This document shows positions 2,841-50,402 of a stretch of DNA of 64,000 nucleotides, one piece after another (positions within the stretch are counted from its first letter, which is position 1; each line of letters opens with the position of its first letter). Under the pieces are notes generated by a model. The model was not told where the DNA came from, made no database searches, and saw only the letters and a list, made by a program, of their open reading frames with translations. Made by a program: the position numbers and the translations under genes. The stretch is taken from NCBI GenBank assembly GCA_027604505.1, contig JADIIX010000016.1, forward strand, positions 124,001-188,000, in the 5' to 3' direction. This stretch comes from Gonapodya sp. JEL0774 (lineage: Eukaryota).

Positions 2841-3252
2841 CTCAGTATTTGTTCTCGAAGTTCAATATGTGATTCTGCCGCATGAAATTGGAATTATTCC
2901 GTGTGTTCTCGGTTTTTGATCACTAATGACGGAGACGGCAAGGGTGCTTCTATGTTAGTTCACTCGGCATCTAATTGTAGCAAAATTCTTCATCATAAAG
3001 AAAAGTCTTCTTCGGCCGCTTTTTATGCACGATATCTTGGTGCATGATATGAACTGCAGGTCTCGTGACACAAAAAGTGAGACAAAGAAATAACACAATA
3101 TAATTCACAGAGACGCAGTGGGGTGAAAGAACAGAAGTAGGTTACTTGAAGGTGGCTGCAAAAGAATATCCGCCAGCCGCCCCTGTATTTACACTAGAGC
3201 ATGAGATACCTGAAACAAAGTCAAAACCAACGAGTATCCGGCTCCAAAAAAA

Positions 3253-32000: not shown

Positions 32001-32322
32001 AGTACATTCATGTCGAATGACACAGTCATGGACTCATGGTCGCCCCTGGGTTCCTCCAGAGCTTTTGCATTGGAGTGAATCAGAAAGTGGGCAGATCTGA
32101 GAAATCTTCGCTGTTCAATGGGGACTAACTAATTCACTTGGTTGTGTGATTGGGGATGTGATCTGATCTGGACCACAGCAACCACAGCCGACTTCTCCCC
32201 CACACCACACAAATCCCTCCCCAACACAGACACTCGGGCCACAGTCCGGCGGGATTGGCCCGATTCCCCCTGATCTCCACTTGCCGCGACACACCGCACA
32301 CACGCCACACACGGCCACACAC

Positions 32323-35300
32323 ATGCCGCCACCGGGCGACTCCACATCCCCAGACGGCACTCCCACCGAGATCTGCTCCCTGCTTGCCGCCTGCAAGTAC
32401 GGGGACGCAGACGCAGTCCGGTTGTTCCTGGACGCGGGCGCACAGGTTGATGAGATCGATGCGGATGGGAACTCGGCGCTGATGTGGGCGGGTGCGTTGT
32501 TGTTGTTGTTGGGGGTGGGTGGGTGGGGTGCTTGGGTGGGCGGGTGGGGTGGGGTGGACATGGGGCGTCAAGGGCTGTGGACAGTGGGAGACAGTCTGCG
32601 GACACAGATTGCACAAGCAACCGTGACTCATGGGTGGCGGCAAATTCAACTTGACCCGTGTTGGCTCCGTCCATCCCCCGCTCACGCATTCCCATCCCCA
32701 CATCCCACCACCCACCCGGTCCCCCTCCCGTTCACACCCACCCACACTTCCCAGCACTCGGCGGATTCACAGACGCAGCCGCTCTTCTCCTCACCGCAGC
32801 CACCGCAGGAACCGCAGCAACCGCAGCCACCCCCCCTCCCCCGTCCCCCCGCGCACTCCTCGCACACAGGAACCACAAGGGCGAATCCCCCCTCCTCTGG
32901 GCGGCAATGGCCCCTTACGAACCCCCTTCCTCCCTCTCCCTCCTCCACCTCTCCTCCACCTCTGCTCCTTCCACGTCCCCGTCCCCGTCCCCGCACCCAA
33001 ACCCAAACCCCTCCGACTCCGACTCCGACTCCGCAACTCTCCAAAACCTCCCTGCAGTCCGCCTCCTCCTCTCCCACGGCGCTGACCCAAACACCGCCTG
33101 CGACAGACTCGCCTGGACACCCCTCATGTACGCCTGCTGCTACGGAAAGCACCTCGTCGCCCGGGTCCTCCTCGACGCCGGCGCAGACCCCGCCGCCAGA
33201 AACGCCGGGGGACACACGGCCCTCGGCGTCGCGCAGAATTACGGCAGGAACGATGTCGCCGCGATGCTCAAGAAGGCGGCCAGGGATAAGAAGGCGACGA
33301 CGACGGCCACAGGTGGTGGAGTCACGGTGGCAAGGGTGCCCACAAAGGGGGCCGCCGCGGCGGGACACGGTGCGGGTGGTGGTGCCACAGGGTCTACAGG
33401 GACTGCCGGTGCCGGTGCCGGTGGGACATCGACAACGGCATCTGGATCCGCAGCCGCACCACATCCCTCGTCCGCATCTCACCCCACCTCCACCTCACCA
33501 TCCACCCCCCCTGTCCACATCTTCCGCGGCCACACCGCATTCTCCTCGGGCTCCGCCTTCTCCACCAGCACCACTACCGCAGCCGATCCATCCGACGCCG
33601 CCCTCCCCCTCCCCCGCTCCCGTTCCACAGCCGCCGGTACTTCCAGATCCACATCTTCCTCAATCACGAAAACCCCTCCTCCGGGAACCCCAAAGGCTCC
33701 CCACAGGGCCGCTCCCCCGCCTCCCCCGGGCTCAGGCCTGGGGGCGCTGGTGGATGCTCCGACTCCAGCCAACCCAGCTTCAGCTTCAGCTTCAGGCGGC
33801 GCCCCACCGATCCACTCGACGACACCCCCCACCCCCACCCCCACCGCTGCCCCGCCCAAATCCACCTCGCTCTCCTTCTCCCGCCTCCTCAACGCCCTGT
33901 CCCGTCCCACATCGTCGGGGTCCCTCCACGCGGGGGGGGATAAGGACAAGCCGGCCAAGGACAGGGACAAGGAGAAGCACAGGGACAAGGAGAGAGAGGG
34001 CAAGGAGAAGGAGAGGGACAAGGACCGGGCCGAGAAACCTGCCCTGGCGACGGCGACGGCGACGGCACAGACCACGGCCACGGCGACGGCGACGGTCACC
34101 ACGTCCGCGACGGAGCTTGCGACGGGGCACCACGCAGGGGTCAAGGAGATTGTCGGGAGGTGGAACGGGGGTGCGGGGGGTGTGGGTGTGGGGGGATCGG
34201 GACCGGGATCGGGCGTTGGATCGGCGCCTGCTCCGGCACCGACACAGGGACCTGTTCAAGTTCACGCATCCGCATCCGCATCCGCCACGACCACGACCAC
34301 CCCACAAGCGACACATCCGTCTGGACAGGGTTCCGGGGATTCCGACGACGGTGATTCGGGCCCTGCTCTTGCTCGGACCGTCGAGGGTGGTGGTGGTGGT
34401 GGTGGTGTGGACGTGGGCGTAGGCGTCGGTGTGGGCGCCATCAGAGCAAGGTTTGAAAAGGGGGACAAGACGCCAGGAGAGGAAGGGGACAAGGTGAGTC
34501 CCGGTGTGTGCCTCATGCTGGTATGCGTATGCGATATTGGGGTTTGGGGGTGTACGGAGAGATGAGATGGTGACTCAACCTCAACCTTGGCGTTCGGGGG
34601 ACTCGTTGACACACCACACGCCCATCTCCACACACCACCTACCCCCCCTCCCCCGCTTACCGACCAGATAAAACCTCCCACGGACCTTGCACCCCCTCCC
34701 GCTCTGCACCCGCCTTCCCCGTCCGCCTCCGTGGGTCCCACAACCACAGCCGACCGCCCGTCCTCCCCCTCTGCACCACCCCATCAACAACGAAGCCCCT
34801 CGCAGTCCATCACATCGACCCCGACGGAACTTGTCACTCACGTGATGATCCCTCCTCCTCGGACGGACTCGTTGTCGTTGGCGGGCGGGCAGGTGGGTAC
34901 CCCGAGATGGGCATGTGCGGGGGAGAGTCGTGTGGTCCATGTTTCTCACCGAGTCGTTTTGTTCGTCGGCGGGTTCTGTCGTGTATTTATTTTTATTGGA
35001 TTTCTTTCTTTTCTTTTGTTTTTTTTTTCTTTTGGTCATTTTGGTTTGTCCTTTCTCGTTTGTTTGCTGTTGTTTTCGGCGCCGTAGATGGGCGTGCCTG
35101 CACAACCTCTTGCCAGGAACCCGTCCACCTCACAGCGTCCCACCACAACAACGTCTCAAACCGCGCCCACGAAACCCGCCAGTCAACCTCATCTTTCGAA
35201 ACCAGAAGCCTCAAATGCATCCCCCAAGGCCACTGCTGAACCTCTGGTATTCGGTCAAGCCGAACGCCCCATTGGCGGCAAGAGCCCTTCGGATTCCCGT

Positions 35301-36671
35301 CGAGGGTCCGACCGAGCGTCCGCCTCCGCCTCCGCGTGGCTTCAAGAATCTCATCAATCGAACGCCCGCGATCCTGCACCGGACCATCTCGTTGCCAATG
35401 CGCCACCTGCGGTGTCCCGAAGTGGCTCTCGGAGGAACACCGACGCGCAGCAACACTCGGCGTCTGAACGCCGCAGCGTCTCCATTGCGCTTTCGAGCGT
35501 TTCTGTCCCTCAGCCGGCTCGTGACGGTGACAGTGACGAGGAGGATGCTCCGGCCGAGGACTTGTTTTCTAGGTCGGTCAAGGCCATTGTGGCAAAGTCG
35601 AGATCACAATCGTTTTCCGCAAGCGCGGACCAGGATGCCCTTGTTCGCAGGCTCGTGGCTTCTACAGAGGATCCGACCAGAGCTGTCTCCGTGGTGGAGG
35701 GCACCGATGCTGATGTGCCGGCGTCACCGGGTATCGGAAGCAGGAAGGGGTCCTTGTTCAGAAAACTATCCACGCTCAGCGCCAAAGCAGGTGGATCGCG
35801 GTTGGCGGCCATAGTTGGAGACTCGATTGAAGCACTAGGGGATGGAGAACCGAAGGGTCAATCGAGCAAGAATGAAGACCTCCAAAAGAGCCCAGAAAAC
35901 ATGCAGATTTCTGCACCGACAGCGGCCGTTCCTGTTTCCAATTACGTGTTTGGCGCACAGCCCGCAGCTGCAATTGTTCTCAACATGGCATCTGAAGATG
36001 CGGAAACGCATCAAATGAAGACCGTAAACGGGACGCGTGGAAGATCGCGGTCGTCTTCTGTTGAGTTGGCAGGGAAAGAAGCTGGGGCAACAAGTTCAAT
36101 GCCCGTCGACGAAAAACCGAAACTTACCCGCCAAAGGTCTGCCTCAGCGAATCCAGAAACCGGATTTCTCACGGGCCATCGTGCTAGTCTGGCCACAGCT
36201 GGGATTCGGCCCAGATCTGGAAGTGGGGGGTCAGCGGACGCAACATCGGTTCAAGATCCTGGGGCCACGGCAGCTGTTTCCTTCTTTTCCCGCTTGCCTG
36301 TGTCGGCAACCCTTTCTCGGTACGGGTCGACACATGCAACGATCTCATCTGTAAAGCTTCGCGTCTTACATGCGAGAGGCGAGGCTACTTTCAAGGTGTC
36401 AGGTGATGCGACGTTTGAGCAGGTTGTTCGGGAAGGAATTCTCAGGGGTGCAGTGTTACCGCACACTTCTTATTTCAAGATCCGACCAGTCGGCGTTGAA
36501 GCTTGGGAATACTTACCGGGGGACAAGGTGAAGATCGCTTGTGAGCCTGGCGATAGTGCAATTGCTGGACTTCCTCCCTTGCCGGGTAACCGAGATAATG
36601 AGGTCGTCGTTTCGGTAAAAGTGTCATTCCACAGGAGAGATTTCGATGTTGAAGATCTCGTTGGCAGATAA
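32323..36671 (+). CDS. Ankyrin-repeat protein with low-complexity middle and small globular C-terminal domain (4 exons)
   Basis: 'ACKYGDADAVRLFLDAGAQVDEIDADGNSALMWA', 'GESPLLWAA', 'WTPLMYACCYGKHLVARVLLDAGAD', 'GHTALGVA'. Phase-0 introns at ~34494-34667 and ~34893-35087 join to ORF 35088..36671. Confidence 0.82.
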
Positions 36672-36731: not shown

Positions 36732-39700
36732 TCAACCCTTTGGAAGAAGATTCGCCATGGAAGCAACTGAAGGACTCTGTATGAATCCTGTTTTCATTAC
36801 GATCCCATCACTTTTTGTGTTGGAATCTCCGTCCTTGGCTGTAAATTCTTGTCTTGTCTTGACATTGATGTCCTCTGAGGTGGATTTGGAGAAGAGTACC
36901 CGGACGGCCGCAAAAGTGGCTATCTTCAGCGGTTGCGATAAGAAAAGCGATTCAATGAAGCTAACAACGAATGAAACAAGCCACTGTCCATGAATGTGGC
37001 ACGAAAATGACTGAAGTTTAGCGTTCCGTAGGCTTTACGGACGAAAGAAAAGCGCAACGTACTGGCTCGGAGACCGCGTTGTCCAACCTCAAACCAATAA
37101 TTAGTGCAATATAGAAAGCGAGTCCTCCAGCCGCAAACGCGAGTGCGTAGGCCACATACAAGAATCCATAGGGCAGGAGCCAACGCGCTTCATCATTCTT
37201 TTTCGATTGCGAAAGATTTTCTTCCCCTTCTTTTCTTCCTTTCTTCGAGGTTCTATTGTACCTAATTCGACGGAACGTCTGTTCGATCAGCATCGACACT
37301 GGCAGAACAATGGCAGAAGAAATAACCCCCGTTGCAATTTTGTGCAAAAGACTGGTTTTCGGTCGAGTGTCGTACTGCCGAAACGACACACACCGATTAG
37401 GTACCGATATGGAGTCGTAACAAGAAGAACACTCACGAAAACGGCAAGAATCGCCATATTACATAAAAGCACCATGAAGCACACGGTTAAACGCTGGACA
37501 CGGGTGTAATGGGACCCTTCCAACCGAGAAAGATGTGGAGCTTTGCTTGACAATGCCCCCCAAAAGAATAACGTTCATACCAAATGGTCTGGTTTCGGCA
37601 AGAGTTGCCGCCCATAAATGATTGTCTCGGAATCCAATGATAATATACTTGAGGAGGGTCAATGAAAAGCTTTGTGCGAGACGCGTTCTAAAACACAGCA
37701 GCTAAATCAGGGCAGCTCAGAGGGAACAACTCAAGACATATTCCTACTAACTTATCGCGAACCGACAAGACAACCGCGGTCCTGTCCCCGATATCGTTCT
37801 CCTGGACCGGCTCCTTAATGATAAAACTCCACTCCTCCGATGTCTCATAGCAACGGACGGAAACCTCCCCAGGCTGCCATGTTGCAGGTGGTCCCTTCGA
37901 GGATAATTTACTTTCTTCCAACTTTATTCCCACTGTTTCCAGGTGTTTGATGTGAGGTGCCTCCACATAAAATATGACCTTTTGGTTCTTCTGCAATAGA
38001 AGGCGCCCCATGTACCAAGTTTTCAATTGAAGCTCTCCACTGTGCTCTCCGTTTGGGCCACGAAATGAAATACTCATTGTGTGGGTGCGGCGGATGTTGG
38101 TGGCTTCACGAGTGTTGATGGTCACCTGGAATATCACAGGTTTGTTTTCTGAGATATGGTTGTACAACAATATTAAAGAACATTGTTTGAGAATATAGGG
38201 TCAACAGACGTACTTACCGTGAATATCCCAGCGAACTTTCTTAAGTTCAACGGCGTCATCTCGCCAGAACTTACAGGCAAGTACAACATACACAACGACT
38301 GAACGGAACGATGAAGGTTCACTTGGGAATACTCTCAGCACCCAAAGTTGACGATAAATCCTACCAATGGCAATGAGAACAGCAAGAATGGTGGGGTTTC
38401 CCTGAATTTGTTCCGCAACGTTTCCAACATCCTGAAAGGGATTGTTGATTGTAATCAGATCGTCCCACGACCCAAAGTCCATCCTGCGGATATTGCGCCA
38501 TGAATTGAAATTCCAGAGTGAATGATATCAAATGAGCAGAGGTTTAAATTCAAATCTGACATTCCCCGCACTCACGTAAACAGGGATAAGTGTGTCGTGC
38601 AGCATTTGAATGGAATGGAGGAACTGCTATTCTGGGTCTGAATTCCCGCAGAGCTCCAATTTCCGATCGTAATATTCCAGAATAAACAGGAAGGGAGGCG
38701 TCCAGGTCGTCCTGGATTGAGATGATCGGTCTACTACACTTTGAAGTGATTGAAGCCGCCATTCAGCAATACACACCTCCTCGAACGAGTGGGACTTGCA
38801 GTTCAATGCAGGAACTCAAATTTTCGACGACTACATCTGTTGCATTCTCTGTAACACCAAAATAAAGTGCTTGGGACCAGTTGCTTTGTTGGAGGTCAGT
38901 TTTCTCTCAGACGGTCGAAATCAAACGCACAAAGCTTTCCTCACCTCAGCGACGCCCCGACTGAATTATCAAATGGGTTCTTATTCATGCTAACAAGATG
39001 TAATTGAAATCCGGTGGAAATCGTTCCCTGTAGTATCTGCGTCAGTGACTGATTGAGATTTGAAACAACAGCACCGTCAGAAGAACTGAGAGATTCAGGA
39101 AGCTGACTGCTGGCCCCGTTGTATACTGTAATTGAAAAAATGGATGAATTGACTTGCGTTGTGTTACCAACGGTTGTACCCTCGCCGAGGGCTTTCGCCA
39201 AATTCTGGATTGCACCAAGAAGTGAAGTGGATACATTACTGCCTACAACATCAAAGCGAGTACTGTTGGTGGCTTTTGTTGCATTCACCGACAAAGCCGA
39301 ACTGTTCTCCGTGCTCATCCAGGCTTTGTCTATGCAAGTAAGAATATTTGTGGCAGCGTCCAGGGATGCCAGCCCACCGTTACCACGGGTCGCTCCCGTA
39401 AGTTTCGAAAAAGTTGTTAGAGCACTAACAAGCAAGGTTTCGTTGAAAGTCGACGGCATAAGCGAGGGGAAGATTGTGCTGGCTGCAGAAAGGGCCTCAG
39501 AGACTCCACTTCCCGGACTCTGTGCGAGAACGACGTCAGAAAGGACATCCAAAACATTGCTCTTCACATTGTCGATCGGCGTGGCTGAATCAGTCGCGGA
39601 CGAGTTGCTTTGTTCATTAACCAGCTGTTTTGCGATCTCAGACACCCCTGAAAGTATCTGAGGCAAGTTCGAAGTAGCGTTTGGAGACACACCAGCCGCT

Positions 39701-41405
39701 CTGAGAATGCCCAAGTTGTTGGACGCCACCGTCATGTCAAATTGTGAAGGTGATGCTAACACCACCACGTCCGTCTGAGTATCCCACGATTCATTATTAT
39801 CTGTACGGTATATTTCGGTGATTAAGGGAACTGTACCATTCACCGACGGGTCGCCTCCAAGCGGTAATTGGAAGCTTTGTAGAGTTGAGTTGAAGGTTGC
39901 AGTCTCAGTCAAGTATACTTTTGACTTGGAGGAAAGTGTGCTATTCAACCACGCAAATCTGTACTTGAGAGCCATGAAGTCGTCGGTCAACCACCCGTCG
40001 CATTGTAGTGTGAAAAGTGTGGCACCTGCCGAGCCAATTTGTGGAGACACGCGGCACTTTCCTCCGATGGGCGATGGGCATTTAGTCAATATAGCGGAGC
40101 ACACTCTCGGATAGTTGCTCGTGCACGAATACAAGGAATTCCCCGAAAGAATGCATGTAGACAGTTTGGGTGGAAAGAATCCGTCGCAATTCGAAGAAAA
40201 CATGTTGTTGCTCAGATCCAACGAATTCAATTCGAGAGCCCCAGACACATTAAAATAACCACTCAACAAGTTTGAGCTGCAGCAGAGGCGAGGAGGTGTG
40301 TACACTCTACTTGTTGTATACAACTATGTGACTCCAAAACTCACCTCAAATTGAGTGAAATTAAACTGGGCATGGATACGAGAGATTGAGCGCCTGCGGC
40401 GGCGAATACGTATGAAATTTGATTCCTGGACAAATCCAGAACACTCAAAGACGGGAGTGTTGACGAAACAAAAGAGGTCAGTGGGCCTGTCAAGCTGTTG
40501 GAATCCAGTCTCAATTCTTGTAATGTTTTATGGTCTAGCACCGGTAGCGCTCCTGAAATATTATTGTTTCCAAGATCGAGTTTCTGCAGTTTTGGAAGAT
40601 TGGGGAAAAATGTCGGGAGAATAGATCCGAGTATCCCACAGCTTCGTGCTTCCAATTGCAAAAGTGTGTCAGAGGCGCCGTTCAACAACGAGAGGTTCCC
40701 GGTCACGTTGGTGTTCGAAATGGAGAGGTATTTAAGTGGTGAGCTGAAGTAAGTGGGAAGAGTTCCAGATATAGAGGTGTTGGCGGCCTGGAAATTGATC
40801 AGCGAATAGCGCAAATTGTTCACAAGTACGGTTCCAATATCTCCTTGAACCTTCAGATTATGAGACACATCCAAGACTCCGAGAAATGGCAAGTACGTTA
40901 GACCGGACTCCAGCGTACCGGTCACAAATGACTTGGGAAATGCGCCTTCAAAAGCATTCCGTGAGATGTTTAGGGTGGTGAGCACAATCAAATTTGAGAC
41001 AAATGCCAGTGATCCGCTGAGGAAGTTAGAAGCCAGGTTAAGTGAGTTCAGAGAACCAGGGAGCGTGGGTACAGATCCGGATAAATTGCAGTTGGACAAA
41101 TCTAATGATGTCAATGCACTAGCATTGGCAACTGAAGCAGGTATTGCGCCCGATAGAGCTATTCCGCTCAGATTCACAGATGCAAGTCGTAAGACGCCAG
41201 TAAAGTTCTGACATCCGAATAATGCTGAGTAATCACAGCAAGAGCCAACCCTCCATGGAACTTTTATGCCAGATTGAGCAAACAGATCTTGGGGAAACGA
41301 GCAATCCGTCGCCTGGTTTGCTAGGTTTGCGACATCAACGTAAGTAACGCTCGAGACTTTCGCAGTCAGAAGAGACAGGAGCGCTGGGAGTATCCACCGT
41401 GACAT
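36732..41405 (-). CDS. Polycystin-1 (PKD1)-like receptor: signal peptide, LRRs, REJ-like region, GAIN/GPS, TM1, PLAT, TM2-5; no channel domain
   Basis: Signal 'MSRWILPALLSLLTAKVSS'; LRRs such as 'LTSLDLSNCNLSGSVP'; REJ-like 'CRVSPQIGSAGATLFTLQCDGW'; GPS 'CLFWNITIGNWSSAG...CCTTHLSLF'; PLAT-like exon 37688..38170; 'FRDNHLW', 'YTRVQRLTVCF', 'WLVSFVVSFIESLFLSQPLKI'; stop at 36732. Confidence 0.85.
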
Positions 41406-41610
41406 CGTTCGACTACGGTGTTCAGATCAAAAACTGATCGGGTGGACAGGCACACCAAGTCTGTTCCTGCATTTTATGTAATACTTGACCATTGATTGAT
41501 GAACCAATCGGAAGAGCTGCATTGTAAAATTTGAAGATGTCGTGTGCTTTCCGATGAATTATGTATGAGTTCATAGTGTCGGCTCAACTTCTTCCACACA
41601 CAGTTTTCAA

Positions 41611-42578
41611 ATGTTCATTATCGGACTAACAGGCGGCATCGCTACAGGAAAGTCCACTGTCTCGAAGATGCTCTCTTCTCTCTCCCCAGAGGATGGTGGT
41701 CCTGTCTCAGTTATCGATTTGGACCTCATCGCTCGGGACGTGGTGAGACCAGGAATGCCCGGCCTTCGGGACATTGTAAAAACATTTGGAACGGAGATTC
41801 TCACGGACAAAGGAGAAATGGACAGGCCGAAAATGGGGAAGATTGTGTTCGGGGATCCAGAAGCACGGAAGAAGATCAATAAGTGCGTACGTGATTCTAT
41901 GATTGACTTGGGTGCCACATTAGGCACATTGTTAATTCGAGTGCGTATGCTGCGTTGTGATTTGAGGCATCAAGCATGAGGCTGGACATGCTCGGTGGAA
42001 AGCACCTTGACTCCTTGTTCTGGAAACCGACTGACTGAATTTACCTGCGATCTGACTCGCTGGTTTGCTCGTATTAGATGCACACATCCCTACATTCAAA
42101 GAGAAACACTTCGTCAACTGCTGGGATGGTACATATCAGGCGCGCGATTGGTTGTCGTTGATTCTCCCCTCCTGTTCGAAGCCAAACTCGGCATGGGGAT
42201 ACACTTAAAGGTTGTTGTATACTGGTGGGCCCTCGATAATCTTATAATTCCTTACGGTTTGAGTGCTCACCCGCAAATTTGGTTCTGCACAGCCCCGCCT
42301 CAGTGCAACTTGCACGTCTAACCGCTCGGGATTCATCCACACCAGAAGCAGCGCTTCAGCGTATGAACGCCCAAATGCCTATAGAAGAGAAAAAGGGTCT
42401 GGCGGACGTTGTCATCGACAATTCTAATAGCGCTGATGATACTCTCCGCCAGGTGAAGGACTTAGTCCGTAATCACAAACCTGGATTCATGTCTACGTTG
42501 GCTTGGTGGTGTGTTGGCGCTGGACCGGCTTCCGTAGTTTGGGGTGTGCTCACCTTACTGAGGTGGGCAGGACTGTAG
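41611..42578 (+). CDS. CAB5: Dephospho-CoA kinase
   Basis: P-loop 'IIGLTGGIATGKSTVS', 'IDLDLIARDVV', 'DRPKMGKIVF', 'THPYI', 'DSPLLFE', 'RMNAQMP', 'ADVVIDN', C-terminal hydrophobic tail. Confidence 0.96.
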
Positions 42579-47138: not shown

Positions 47139-50045
47139 TCATATCTGAATGGCAATAGACGACTCTCGGTAGAGAATCACCGGGTTTGTAACGCCTGCCA
47201 CGGAGACGGTCGTGAAGGTGCCGGAAAGAGTTTTGCCAGATTCCACCATGACGACAGAGTAGGTTCCGGGCGAAGGCACGTAACCCGCGGTGAACTCCAC
47301 AATCAAACTGCCGCCTCCGATGGTGGCGCTGCCTGCACCCACTACGTGAATTTTGGATCGAGGACTTTGACTGCTAAAGACAACCCTCAGGGTACCGTTT
47401 GCGGTCTGTGCAAAGCCAGTGACTTGGACAGCCTCGGTCACTGTCAAGACCCCACCATCGACATATACCAATCCACGCCCCAAAGCGTACTCTGAGCCCG
47501 CTACGAGAGTACCACCAGATACCAGGGTTCCCCCACTCCACGAGTTCTTTCCAGTGAGTGTCAACTGACCCGTGCCATTTTTAACAAAGAGACCTCCTCC
47601 CGAAATGTCGTTCTTCCAAATGTCTTTCGCACTGAACGATCCGTCGGCGCCATTCATTGTCACTGTGACGTCACCTTCAAACGCGCCGAAGCCATCTGCA
47701 GCGTCGAAGAGGTTGATGCGGCCCCAGCCCTCCTCATCATCCATAAGTGGATAACCTGACGGGAAAGCAGTAGTCTTGAGCACCACCCTCCGTTGATCCG
47801 CGGTAAGGTATGGGAACCGGGTCTCGAGAAGCACTTCTGCGCTTTTGGGGACGTTTGCGGGAACACCCGATGGACCGACCTTCGGAAGATTGTACGTTGC
47901 GCGGCGAAAGTACTCGGCTTTGTTAGTAGCCCAGTCTGCGAAACGATCCTGTATGTAGGACTTGTCAGCGTCGCTCGGATCTTTTAGTTCAGCTCAATCA
48001 AACCTGACCTTTGATAGATCCGAAGTGTGTGCAGCTGCATAGAAAGTGTCCCAATCCGTCAACCCTAAGGCAGTCATGAATGCCTGGCGAGCCTGTGCGA
48101 CTGCGGCTGGCCCTTTTCCTGCGGCTCCACCCACGGCAATGTTGGACGCAGCTGTAGCGTGTGCAAGGATCCTACCGCCTAAAATTTGGAGTCAAGTTTA
48201 CCATCGAACCGTCCAACTAGTTCTCCACAGAACCGCCGACTTACCAATAACATCCGTTGGGCTGTGCATACCTGCAAATATGCGACTCTCTCCGAGTTCT
48301 AGTGCACGCGCTAGCATTTCTTGGAACCGAACTGGGTTTGCGTACGCAATGGCAATAGCTTTTCGAACCCCTTCGGCTGTGTGACCACTTGGCTGCCCAC
48401 CTGAGAGAATGAGAATAAATTGTGTCTCCAGGACTTGACCAAATTAAGATAAGACATAATAGAGTCCTCACCATCCGTGGCGGGCGTCGTCGAAATAGCG
48501 GGTACGAGTTCTGGCAGCACTGAGACAGACTTCGTCCATCGGAACGGACGAGCATACTTGAAAAATCGCTTCGTAGGCTCAGTGGACGCTGATCCGGCCT
48601 GACCGTTCACGAAATCGACAACGAGCCCAAATGCAGTGTTCGTGGCTGATCCAACACCAGGGTCATTTCCAGCATCGCTGTAGGTTTGGTTCAGGGCGTT
48701 GGGTCCTATTTCCGTGATGGTCGTCGTGAGTTGGGCAAGACTGCGGTAGAGATCTGTGAGCGGACCCATTCCATCTGACACAGAGTAACCTTTGTTACGT
48801 CGATCGTCAAGGTATGCAAGCAAACCCTGCGCGGGAGTGCGAGTGGTTGTATGATTCACCACAACCCGCAAGTTTGCTTCGTGAACCACGGCGTTTAATA
48901 CTTTGCCATCAGTAGCATCGCCTGGAATGCCTGTCCAATTTGATGGAGTCACGGCAGGACAGGCGCCATTCGCAGGAAGAGTAATTCCCGCGTCCACTAA
49001 AAGAGTACTCGGTTGCCAGATATCAAGAAACTTGGAGAGGACTCGAACACCAGCGTTGGTGCCTACAGTGACGAAGCACGCATCGTCGCGGCGATTTGTA
49101 GTCCAAGTATCGACATAGGCAACTATGTTGGAATTGACCGGAGCGGTTGCCGGTACTCCCAGTCCCGTTGGTTTAGCAGGAAGTTGGACAGCTTTTGTAG
49201 TTGCAGTGCTGTTCATTCAAGTCATTCCATCAGTGAAGTGGCATTCCCTGTTGAAACACAACACATACGAAGTAGTTTGTGAGAGGGCAGAGGGTTTTGT
49301 CGTTGATGTCGTTGTGATTTTGATGGTTGCTGTGATCAATCTGGAGCGTTACTGAGATATCAGCAATTGAACGATCCTTGTTCAAACAAATTCGCCTACG
49401 TGGTGGGTTTGGAGACAGTAGTTGTGTATTCAAAGTTTTTTGGGACGAACTGCCGGAAAGCAGAGTGGCAAATGTATGAAAGTGAAGCAGAATGATTGAA
49501 TTCTCGCGGAACTTTCAGAGCGATTCATACTGGGGGTCCCATCGCCACTCACATCAATGCACTCAGCACCTATGTTCCAGTACTTCAACGCAAGCGGGAA
49601 GCTAGCAAGGGTTCCATAATCCACAACTTTTCCTCCTTTGACCTTCACGCCATATGCGATCGCGAGGTTCGGGCAGATGATTTGGTCTGAGTCCAGCAGA
49701 TCATCGCACTCCAACTCCGCCCAGGCTTTACGTGTAGCAGTGTCATTGAGTTTTCCCCATGTCCTAAATGCACACGCACCAATGAATGCAGAATCTGTGA
49801 GGTGTGGCACAACGCTACTCACCATTTGTCCGGTGGTGGGTATACAACGCCGAACTGCTGCTGTACATAGTTGCACCACTGTTTCTTTCCGGCAACGGTC
49901 GTGGGTAGAGTCACATCACTTCTAGATTGAGGTCAGTAGGTGTTTCGAGCAGCGCCAGAATGATGTTTTGTACCCACGGGAGGGGTGCTGCCGATGTGAT
50001 GCTAACGCAGGCAGCCAAAAGCGCGATTGACCCGGCGAGATGCAT
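47139..50045 (-). CDS. Secreted PAP2-superfamily acid phosphatase with C-terminal autotransporter-associated beta-strand repeat (multi-exon)
   Basis: PAP2 motifs 'KRFFKYARP', 'PSGHT', 'SRIFAGMHSPTDVIG'; 'LLETRFPYL...DDEEGWGRINLFDAADG'; repeat 'ISGGGLFVKNGTGQLTLTGKNSWSGGTLVSGGTL'; signal peptide 'MHLAGSIALLAACVSITSA'. Linkage of the 5' exons is inferred. Confidence 0.88.
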
Positions 50046-50302: not shown

Positions 50303-50402
50303 GGGGGGGGGGGGGGGGGGGGGGGGTGGTAAGAGGGTTGGGTTTTTGTTTGGGTTGGGTGTGAAAAATTAAACACACCGGCCCACCCCCAANNNNNNNN
50401 NN
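50303..50402. other. Poly-G run (24 G) followed by a 10-N assembly gap
   Basis: G homopolymer at 50303-50326; N run at 50393-50402. Confidence 0.95.

What the first reader, a model, noticed from the sequence alone, without database searches (positions are those of the whole stretch)
36732..41405. Channel-less polycystin-1-like receptor with plant-type LRR ectodomain in a fungus
Seen: signal peptide, about 10 LRRs of the LxxLxLSxNxLSGxIP type, a REJ-like segment, a GPS motif, TM1, a PLAT-like exon, four more TMs with PKD1-family signatures (FRDNHLW, YTRVQRL, SQPLKI), then a short tail and a stop at 36732. The convergent ankyrin gene stops only 60 bp away, which leaves little room for more exons. 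Known: PKD1-family proteins have GAIN/GPS, TM1, PLAT and TM2-5 followed by a 6-TM channel-like domain that pairs with PKD2 in cilia, and they are not standard fungal proteins. Inference: a stand-alone 5-TM adhesion-type receptor, possibly for zoospore substrate or host sensing, which would show the PKD1 N-terminal module working without its pore module.
Basis: partly seen in the sequence, partly recalled or inferred. Interest (0 to 1): 0.88.

Follow-up and report, generated by a model that had tools for sequence, protein, structure and literature searches.

The report
Fungal polycystin-1 front half, no channel
A swimming-spore fungus has an intact gene for the front half of the kidney-disease protein polycystin-1 (plant-style binding head, self-cutting motif, lipid-binding domain, five predicted membrane helices) that stops before the ion-channel half, so it likely works as a stand-alone surface receptor and offers a natural way to test what that poorly understood half does.

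Summary
An 11-exon minus-strand model (41405-36732, ten GT-AG introns, 1327 aa, one stop) gives 14 plant-type LRRs, a partial REJ, a GPS with intact H-L|S, TM1, a PLAT domain (fold search Z 11.1) and TM2-5. PLAT to TM5 aligns in order with channel-bearing PKD1-like proteins (128.5 bits); a mixed profile hits only polycystin-1 in the PDB. No channel half exists in the window (1835 ORFs, best E 0.4); a convergent gene ends 60 nt away. An identical public protein fragment is labelled Gonapodya. Channel-less GPS-5TM proteins are not unique: I found them in giant-virus contigs and Bigelowiella, and this scan noted them before on other DNA, all without PLAT. What is new is PLAT plus animal-type TM2-5 without a channel, in a fungus. 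It is likely a self-cleaving adhesion-type receptor. Whether it is a pre-fusion relic or a truncation is unresolved. Splicing, expression, cleavage, partner and zoospore role are untested.

The parts
40345..41405 (-). Exon 1 (aa 1-353): likely signal peptide, Cys-rich N-cap, plant-type LRRs 1-11
   Evidence: best PDB sequence hits are plant receptor kinases GSO1 (E 2.5e-42) and FLS2; signal peptide by inspection only
38945..40276 (-). Exon 2 (aa 354-797): last LRRs and C-cap, partial REJ module (40074-39796), Ser/Thr/Asn-rich region inferred to be GAIN subdomain A
   Evidence: Pfam REJ E 1.4e-7; 49% identical to G. prolifera P0002, where LRR, REJ and this region form one annotated protein
38777..38883 (-). 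Exon 3 (aa 798-833): inferred GAIN beta strands before the GPS
   Evidence: splice model; frame favoured by codon usage; its donor/acceptor pair is the least certain of the model
38576..38711 (-). Exon 4 (aa 834-878): GPS motif, predicted cleavage H874-L875|S876 (codons 38592-38584)
   Evidence: Pfam GPS E 1.2e-6; residue numbering
38365..38483 (-). Exon 5 (aa 879-918): stalk and first part of TM1
   Evidence: same junctions in public model P0001
38218..38298 (-). Exon 6 (aa 919-945): rest of TM1 and linker
   Evidence: same junctions in P0001
37752..38148 (-). Exon 7 (aa 946-1077): PLAT/LH2 domain
   Evidence: AlphaFold2 all-beta model, pLDDT 64; top 9 structure matches are proteins I recognise as PLAT-bearing, best Z 11.1, rmsd 3.1, 108 aligned; PKD1 8z6b_A 3117-3229 Z 5.7; Atlas 10 of 10 best family hits PLAT clan
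37581..37687 (-). Exon 8 (aa 1078-1113): amphipathic segment with FRDNHLW motif
37437..37516 (-). Exon 9 (aa 1114-1140): YTRVQRL and TM2
37063..37374 (-). Exon 10 (aa 1141-1244): TM3, short charged loop, TM4
36732..36983 (-). Exon 11 (aa 1245-1327): TM5 with SQPLK, short tail ending 67 aa from the QP, stop TGA
   Evidence: no canonical donor (G at +5) by pattern between 36900 and the stop
35088..36671 (+). Convergent neighbour: last exon of the ankyrin-repeat gene; its stop lies 60 nt from this gene's stop
   Evidence: 527-aa ORF; ankyrin Pfam in 32655-34562; in-frame join through intron 34494-35087

Best explanation
This is an intact fungal gene for a polycystin-1-type front half (LRR head, partial REJ, GPS, TM1, PLAT, TM2-5) with no channel half, and it likely acts as a self-cleaving adhesion-type surface receptor that signals without a pore of its own. 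Shown at sequence or model level: domain order, GPS residues, PLAT fold, homology of PLAT-TM5 to PKD1-like proteins, and the stop after TM5. Inferred steps: (1) the signal peptide sends a heavily N-glycosylated ectodomain outside (31 sequons before TM1, 2 after); (2) the GAIN domain cuts at L875|S876 and the two pieces stay bound, as in PC-1; (3) the LRR solenoid binds a protein or glycan on a surface or another cell, and binding or pull loosens the head and exposes the stalk; (4) with no TOP domain, pore or long C-tail, the output runs through the five-helix bundle, the cytoplasmic PLAT domain (membrane-lipid and adaptor binding, as reported for PC-1) and the cytoplasmic loops, recruiting partners or driving trafficking.
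For: Clean 11-exon ORF; LRR, REJ and GPS Pfam hits; PLAT fold; PLAT-TM5 collinear with 28 PKD1-like N-halves, 128.5 bits, E 1.3e-41; TM4-5, which lies outside the motif used to collect those relatives, 58 bits against at most 2.3 for 200 shuffles; profile A5 hits only polycystin-1 among PDB sequences (3 sequences at E up to 10, best 3.3e-4). Channel-half HMM finds nothing in 1835 window ORFs (best E 0.4), while it detects the channel half downstream in 20 of 22 relatives with at least 1 kb of DNA. Stand-alone GPS-5TM proteins are a stable design: of 116 virus-like hits, nearly all with a TM5 QP motif end about 115-135 aa after it and none carries a channel Pfam; one folds onto PC-1 residues 3066-3610 (Z 14.3, rmsd 4.5, 188 aligned; next Z 5.9). 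PC-1 PLAT binds phosphatidylserine, PI4P and beta-arrestin, and the PC-1 stalk is proposed to act through TOP (PMC9672506 passages).
Against: No transcript, protein or localisation data. The public gene models do not match mine: P0001 starts inside exon 2, skips exons 3-4 and stops in intron 7; the G. prolifera model P0002 stops at the intron-2 position. The membrane half of the G. prolifera orthologue was not recovered, so the stop after TM5 is seen in one genome only. The GPS lacks two of the four usual cysteines (I858, T872). The known PC-1 stalk mechanism needs TOP, which is absent, so step 4 has no direct precedent. No ligand is known.
Confidence: 0.55

Rival explanations
1. Split polycystin: the protein is the sensor half of a polycystin complex and docks in trans on a separately encoded PKD2/TRPP-type channel in the zoospore or gamete flagellum, gating Ca2+ entry.
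For: Its PLAT-TM5 is far closer to channel-bearing PKD1-like proteins than to virus-like 5-TM ones (TM4-5 58 vs 17 bits). PC-1 is itself cut in the TM5-S1 loop (PMC9672506 passage) and TM1-5 is a peripheral domain beside the channel core (PMC7728438 passage). The host lineage is zoosporic and a DUF4200 gene, which I recall as a flagellar CFAP73/CFAP100-type family, lies at about 43.9-45.0 kb.
Against: No channel gene in the window. Virus-like and Bigelowiella proteins keep the 5-TM module with no channel attached. The parts by which PC-1 joins PC-2 (TM6-11; C-terminal coiled coil, recalled) are missing.
Confidence: 0.22
2. Structural adhesin or anchor: the 5-TM/PLAT part only tethers and sorts a shed or sheddable LRR glycoprotein at the cell surface; no signal is passed inward.
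For: Short tail with no recognisable signalling domain; heavy predicted glycosylation; single-pass REJ-GPS proteins exist in sea urchin (PMC1934368 passages).
Against: A five-helix bundle and PLAT are kept in recognisable form, more than an anchor needs.
Confidence: 0.15
3. The model is wrong at its joints: two genes (a secreted LRR-REJ protein ending at intron 2, and a membrane protein), or a decaying remnant of an 11-TM gene.
For: Both public models are partial, and P0002 ends at the intron-2 position; exon 4 frame is not the best by codon usage.
Against: All ten introns are canonical and 61-92 nt with no frameshift; P0001 itself splices exon 2 on to exons 5-7; GAIN-A and GPS belong to one domain and lie in order; P0002 ends with the same residues as read-through of this donor, consistent with a shared intron; no channel remnant in the tail (0.1 bits, within the range of 500 shuffles).
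Confidence: 0.08

Closest known systems
Polycystin-1 family (human PC-1/PKD1, PKD1L1-3, PKDREJ, 11-TM sea-urchin SpREJ3-6)
   Same: LRR-bearing ectodomain, REJ, GPS before TM1, PLAT right after TM1, TM2-5 with the same motifs (PMC1934368 and PMC7728438 passages)
   Different: No TM6-11, TOP, pore or long C-tail; only the last part of REJ; no PKD repeats or lectin found by Pfam; head of 14 plant-type LRRs; fungal host
Short sea-urchin REJ proteins (SpREJ1/8/9 one TM, SpREJ2 two TM, SpREJ7 six TM)
   Same: PKD1-family members with fewer than 11 helices and, in some, partial REJ (PMC1934368 passages)
   Different: None is listed with five helices; animal sperm or embryo proteins; I did not compare their sequences
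Uncharacterised GPS-5TM proteins of giant-virus contigs (L032, L154, L193; P0011-P0126) and Bigelowiella natans (P0004, P0009, P0010)
   Same: GPS, TM1, TM2-5 ending shortly after the QP motif, no channel; PC-1 TM1-5 fold shown for one member
   Different: No PLAT; different heads (CUB, Ser/Thr stalks, full REJ); much weaker similarity in TM2-5; Bigelowiella shows six hydrophobic peaks
Plant LRR receptor kinases and receptor-like proteins (GSO1, FLS2, BRI1)
   Same: LRR class and Cys caps; best PDB sequence hits of exon 1
   Different: No single TM plus kinase; the similarity is repeat-level and is no evidence of plant origin
Adhesion GPCRs
   Same: Adhesive head, GAIN/GPS, stalk before TM1 (PMC3321182 passages)
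   Different: Five PKD1-type helices and PLAT instead of a 7TM bundle

Membership tests
PKD1/REJ family, broad sense (PMC1934368: REJ, GPS, PLAT, 1-11 TM) | REJ domain | tested here: met
   Pfam REJ 31 bits over cut-off 25, partial, profile 313-401 of 452; partial REJ also in SpREJ8/9 and PKD1L2
PKD1/REJ family, broad sense | GPS motif just before TM1 with H-L|S/T | tested here: met
   Pfam GPS E 1.2e-6; H874-L875-S876
PKD1/REJ family, broad sense | PLAT/LH2 directly after TM1 | tested here: met
   fold search best Z 11.1, rmsd 3.1, 108 aligned; PKD1 PLAT Z 5.7; Atlas (recognition value low); no Pfam hit
PKD1/REJ family, broad sense | TM2-TM5 homologous to the PC-1 peripheral domain | tested here: met
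   the fungal helices themselves were not folded
Channel-forming PC-1 type (11 TM, PKD2 partner) | TM6-11 TRP-like domain with TOP and pore | tested here: not met
   stop 67 aa from the TM5 QP; channel-half HMM vs 1835 window ORFs best E 0.4; no channel Pfam in 83 minus-strand ORFs downstream
Channel-forming PC-1 type | C-terminal coiled coil | not tested
   no coiled-coil predictor run; the tail is short and matches no PKD1-like post-TM5 profile
Channel-forming PC-1 type | Assembly with PKD2 and ciliary location | not testable with these tools
   no genome held; needs experiments
GAIN proteins | Actual autoproteolysis | not testable with these tools
   catalytic residues present; the whole GAIN domain was not folded
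Adhesion GPCRs | 7TM bundle after the GPS | tested here: not met
   five helices homologous to PKD1 TM1-5, with PLAT inserted
Plant LRR-RK/RLP | Plant-type LRR ectodomain | tested here: met
Plant LRR-RK/RLP | Single TM with kinase or short tail | tested here: not met
   no kinase Pfam
Virus/protist GPS-5TM proteins | TM1 linked to TM2 without PLAT | tested here: not met
   PLAT present; absent from the 116 hits and 3 viral ORFs by Pfam and spacing

The most novel reading that the evidence does not exclude
This gene is a surviving pre-fusion polycystin-1: an ancient stand-alone GAIN-5TM receptor gained PLAT in early opisthokonts, worked as a receptor in its own right, and only on the animal side fused to a TRPP channel to give 11-TM PKD1. 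The fungal protein is the missing intermediate.
Probability: 0.3. Interest if true: 0.85.

Novelty: new variant of a known kind. Interest (0 to 1): 0.64.

Why it matters
The function of PC-1's membrane core is described as poorly defined, and TM1-5 is a peripheral domain beside the pore (PMC7728438 passages). A natural, compact 1327-aa protein with GAIN, PLAT and animal-type TM1-5 but no channel lets one test whether this module signals alone, binds TRPP channels in trans, or only anchors. It also extends the PLAT-bearing PKD1 lineage to fungi, which bears on when receptor and channel fused. Ten full-text searches listed no paper on such a fungal protein, though the library lacks most subscription journals.

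Tried and rejected
No whole genome held, so paralogues and PKD2 could not be sought. No RNA holder was listed; this is no evidence on expression. Word-based homologue searches with exon 2 and exon 10 and a metagenome locus scan with exon 10 found nothing. The A5 search returned only virus-like proteins and no fungal or animal ones, so the spread in fungi is unknown. Single exons gave no useful PDB sequence hits; NCBIfam gave no polycystin hit; the Atlas gave no usable hit for exon 10. Virus-only profiles (A3, A6) and the TM4-5 profile A8 did not hit PKD1 by sequence. Foldseek found no match at E 0.001 for the virus-like 5-TM model; only VIA did. Viral scans with P0009 and A2 confirmed nothing. 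Alignments A1, A4, A7 and A8 misplaced some exons; A1, A4 and A7 were not used as queries. A by-eye likeness of the tail end to the pre-S1 segment of 11-TM relatives was not above shuffles and is rejected. The TM2-3 segment scored 2.6 bits against the virus-like HMM, not above shuffles. Trees could not order events: Gonapodya joins the channel-bearing group at 84/97 (not starred, long branch); AU tests reject neither a sister position (p 0.375) nor grouping with the virus-like set (p 0.249) or Bigelowiella (p 0.105). Cai and Clapham 2012 was not held. No complex was predicted, as no partner is in hand.
Full report
Gene model. Three-frame reading of the minus strand gave an 11-exon model from ATG 41405 to TGA 36732 with ten GT-AG introns of 61-92 nt, all with G at donor position +5, and a 1327-aa product with one stop. 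A codon-usage score trained on five long ORFs of the window favoured the modelled frame in 10 of 11 exons; exon 4 was the exception. A public protein, P0001 (KAJ3342481.1, labelled Gonapodya sp.), is identical over the stretches it shares and uses the same exon 5/6/7 junctions, but it starts inside exon 2, removes 18 residues there, skips exons 3-4 and ends in intron 7. The G. prolifera protein P0002 (KXS20423.1, 769 aa) is 41% identical over residues 34-797 and holds LRR, REJ and the following region in one chain; it ends with the residues that read-through of my intron-2 donor would give, consistent with a shared intron and a truncated annotation. Gonapodya is in Monoblepharidomycetes. Neighbours fit a flagellated fungus: DUF2015 (fungal) and DUF4200 (its flagellar link is recalled).

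Ectodomain. Residues 1-19 look like a signal peptide by inspection; no predictor was available and the 19-residue hydropathy stayed under 1.6. There are 14 LRRs between Cys-containing caps: 12 found by pattern and 2 read by eye in the long spacers. The best PDB sequence matches of exon 1 are plant receptor kinases (GSO1 E 2.5e-42, FLS2 6.7e-39; 105 sequences at E up to 0.001), which supports the repeat class, not a plant origin. Pfam REJ covers profile positions 313-401 of 452 (E 1.4e-7) and GPS is above its cut-off (E 1.2e-6). The cleavage residues H874-L875|S876 are intact; two of the four usual GPS cysteines are replaced (I858, T872). The PC-1 site quoted in PMC7728438 Table 1 (passage) also lacks the cysteine four residues before the cut. 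There are 31 N-glycosylation sequons before TM1 and 2 after.

PLAT. Exon 7 had no Pfam or useful PDB sequence hit. Folded alone it is all-beta (mean pLDDT 63.8; the other four models 30-45). Against 48,161 chains the top nine are lipoxygenases, a clostridial alpha-toxin C-domain, lipases and Rab6IP1, which I recognise as PLAT/LH2 carriers (Z 11.1 to 6.6); PKD1 8z6b_A 3117-3229 is rank 11 at Z 5.7. The Atlas gave PLAT for the best clusters (score 0.94; 10 of 10 best family hits in one clan), with a low recognition value, so it is weak alone.

TM2-5. Hydropathy peaks above 1.6 mark TM1-TM4; TM5 is below. A profile of two viral ORFs plus exons 8, 9 and part of 10 hit only polycystin-1 among 177,635 PDB sequences (3 sequences at E up to 10, best 3.3e-4); virus-only profiles did not hit it. 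A motif scan of metagenome contigs gave 84 loci, most of them PKD1-like. Five long ORFs carry Polycystin_dom and PKD_channel, four of them also PLAT; their organisms are unnamed and I call them animal-type by architecture only. An HMM of 28 N-halves (the loci whose ORF reached the TM5 QP motif) aligns to the model in order from PLAT to TM5 at 128.5 bits, E 1.3e-41. The set was collected with the window's own TM2 motif, which inflates the TM2-3 score (59 bits); TM4-5 is independent of it and scores 58 bits, against 17 for the virus-like HMM and at most 2.3 and 4.1 for 200 shuffles.

No channel half. The model ends 67 aa from the QP motif; the five channel-bearing ORFs run on for 680-849 aa. Their channel-half HMM finds nothing in 1835 six-frame ORFs of at least 20 aa in the window (best E 0.4). 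As a control it detects the channel half downstream in 20 of 22 relatives with at least 1000 nt beyond TM5; the other two have only about 1 kb and match the first part of the linker; 6 of the 28 had less DNA and were not counted. Pfam on 83 minus-strand ORFs from 36.8 to 24 kb shows no channel family. The convergent stop is 60 nt away and belongs to a 527-aa exon that joins the ankyrin exon in frame. I put the channel-less architecture at about 0.9.

How common is the design. Bigelowiella P0004/P0009/P0010 have REJ (not in the shorter P0009), GPS, TM1, no PLAT and further helices, with no channel Pfam. Following a lead from this scan, two GPS-pattern scans of viral contigs gave 240 loci, of which 5 held an in-frame GPS and 3 were complete GPS-5TM ORFs. 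The last homologue search returned 116 related proteins, none with PLAT or channel Pfam; most end 115-135 aa after QP. One of them (P0045, 88-row alignment, pLDDT 83.9) matches PC-1 residues 3066-3610 at Z 14.3, rmsd 4.5, 188 aligned, with the next row at 5.9; Foldseek missed it. So PC-1's TM1-5 exists alone in distant lineages. The fungal protein differs in having PLAT and animal-type TM2-5.

Origin. On TM2-5 the fungal protein joins the channel-bearing group (SH-aLRT 92 in a quick 49-row tree; 84/97 in a careful 27-row tree of a hand-picked subset), on a long branch and unstarred. AU tests reject none of the alternatives (p 0.375, 0.249, 0.105). The tail shows no significant remnant of the pre-channel linker. 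A pre-fusion relic, secondary loss and transfer from an animal-like donor all remain open; I give the relic about 0.3.

Mechanism. Most likely (0.55) a self-cleaving adhesion-type receptor whose output runs through the helix bundle and PLAT. PMC9672506 (passages) reports PLAT binding to phosphatidylserine, PI4P and beta-arrestin, a stalk-TOP route for PC-1 activation, and cleavage in the TM5-S1 loop. TOP is absent here, so the output must differ from PC-1's. Rivals: a sensor half acting in trans on a TRPP channel (0.22), a passive adhesin (0.15), a wrong model or remnant (0.08). All functional steps are inferred.

Literature. Passages read: PMC1934368, PMC3321182, PMC12716839, PMC13197933, bioRxiv 10.1101/153437 (25), PMC7728438, PMC3410928, PMC9672506, PMC6712302 (a Gal_Lectin domain of rumen fungi allied to PC-1, not this architecture), PMC7399828 (oomycete PKD-type channels without GPS). 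No whole text or supplement was read; supplements of genome or domain surveys could list this protein. Ten full-text searches listed no paper describing a fungal PKD1-like protein with PLAT or a five-helix channel-less form; most subscription journals are not held.

Verdict. Real gene, correctly read. It belongs to the PKD1/REJ family in the broad sense but fails the defining feature of channel-forming PC-1.

Noticed in passing
window 47142-49216, minus strand: Two ORFs (284 and 301 aa); the first has a PATR passenger-associated transport repeat (E 2.3e-9). Together they look by eye like a bacterial-type acid phosphatase/autotransporter-passenger protein in a fungus; that reading is recalled, not tested.
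   Followed up: partly
window 43.9-45.0 kb, minus strand: DUF4200 in two exons, recalled as a CFAP73/CFAP100-type flagellar protein.
   Followed up: no
window 41569-42578, plus strand: Dephospho-CoA kinase (CoaE) gene, divergent, starting about 200 nt from the receptor's ATG; a shared short promoter region is possible.
   Followed up: no
window 32167-36671, plus strand: GC-rich, low-complexity ankyrin-repeat gene of more than 1100 aa whose last exon has no Pfam match.
   Followed up: partly
L032:1498-5175, L154:793-4554, L193:1024-4560: Complete GPS-5TM genes on viral contigs (two named GVMAG) with CUB or other heads on long Ser/Thr stalks; family of at least 116 clusters that ends at a conserved distance after TM5.
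   Followed up: yes
L265, L270, L272, L275, L314: Uninterrupted ORFs of 1032-3036 aa for channel-bearing PKD1-like proteins in metagenome contigs, while close relatives in other loci are split into exons; they may be assembled transcripts.
   Followed up: partly
P0003, P0006: Bacterial-looking metagenome proteins with tandem copies of the same short REJ-type module that matches residues about 420-500 of the fungal protein.
   Followed up: no
window 50393-50402: A 10-N assembly gap, far from the finding.
   Followed up: no
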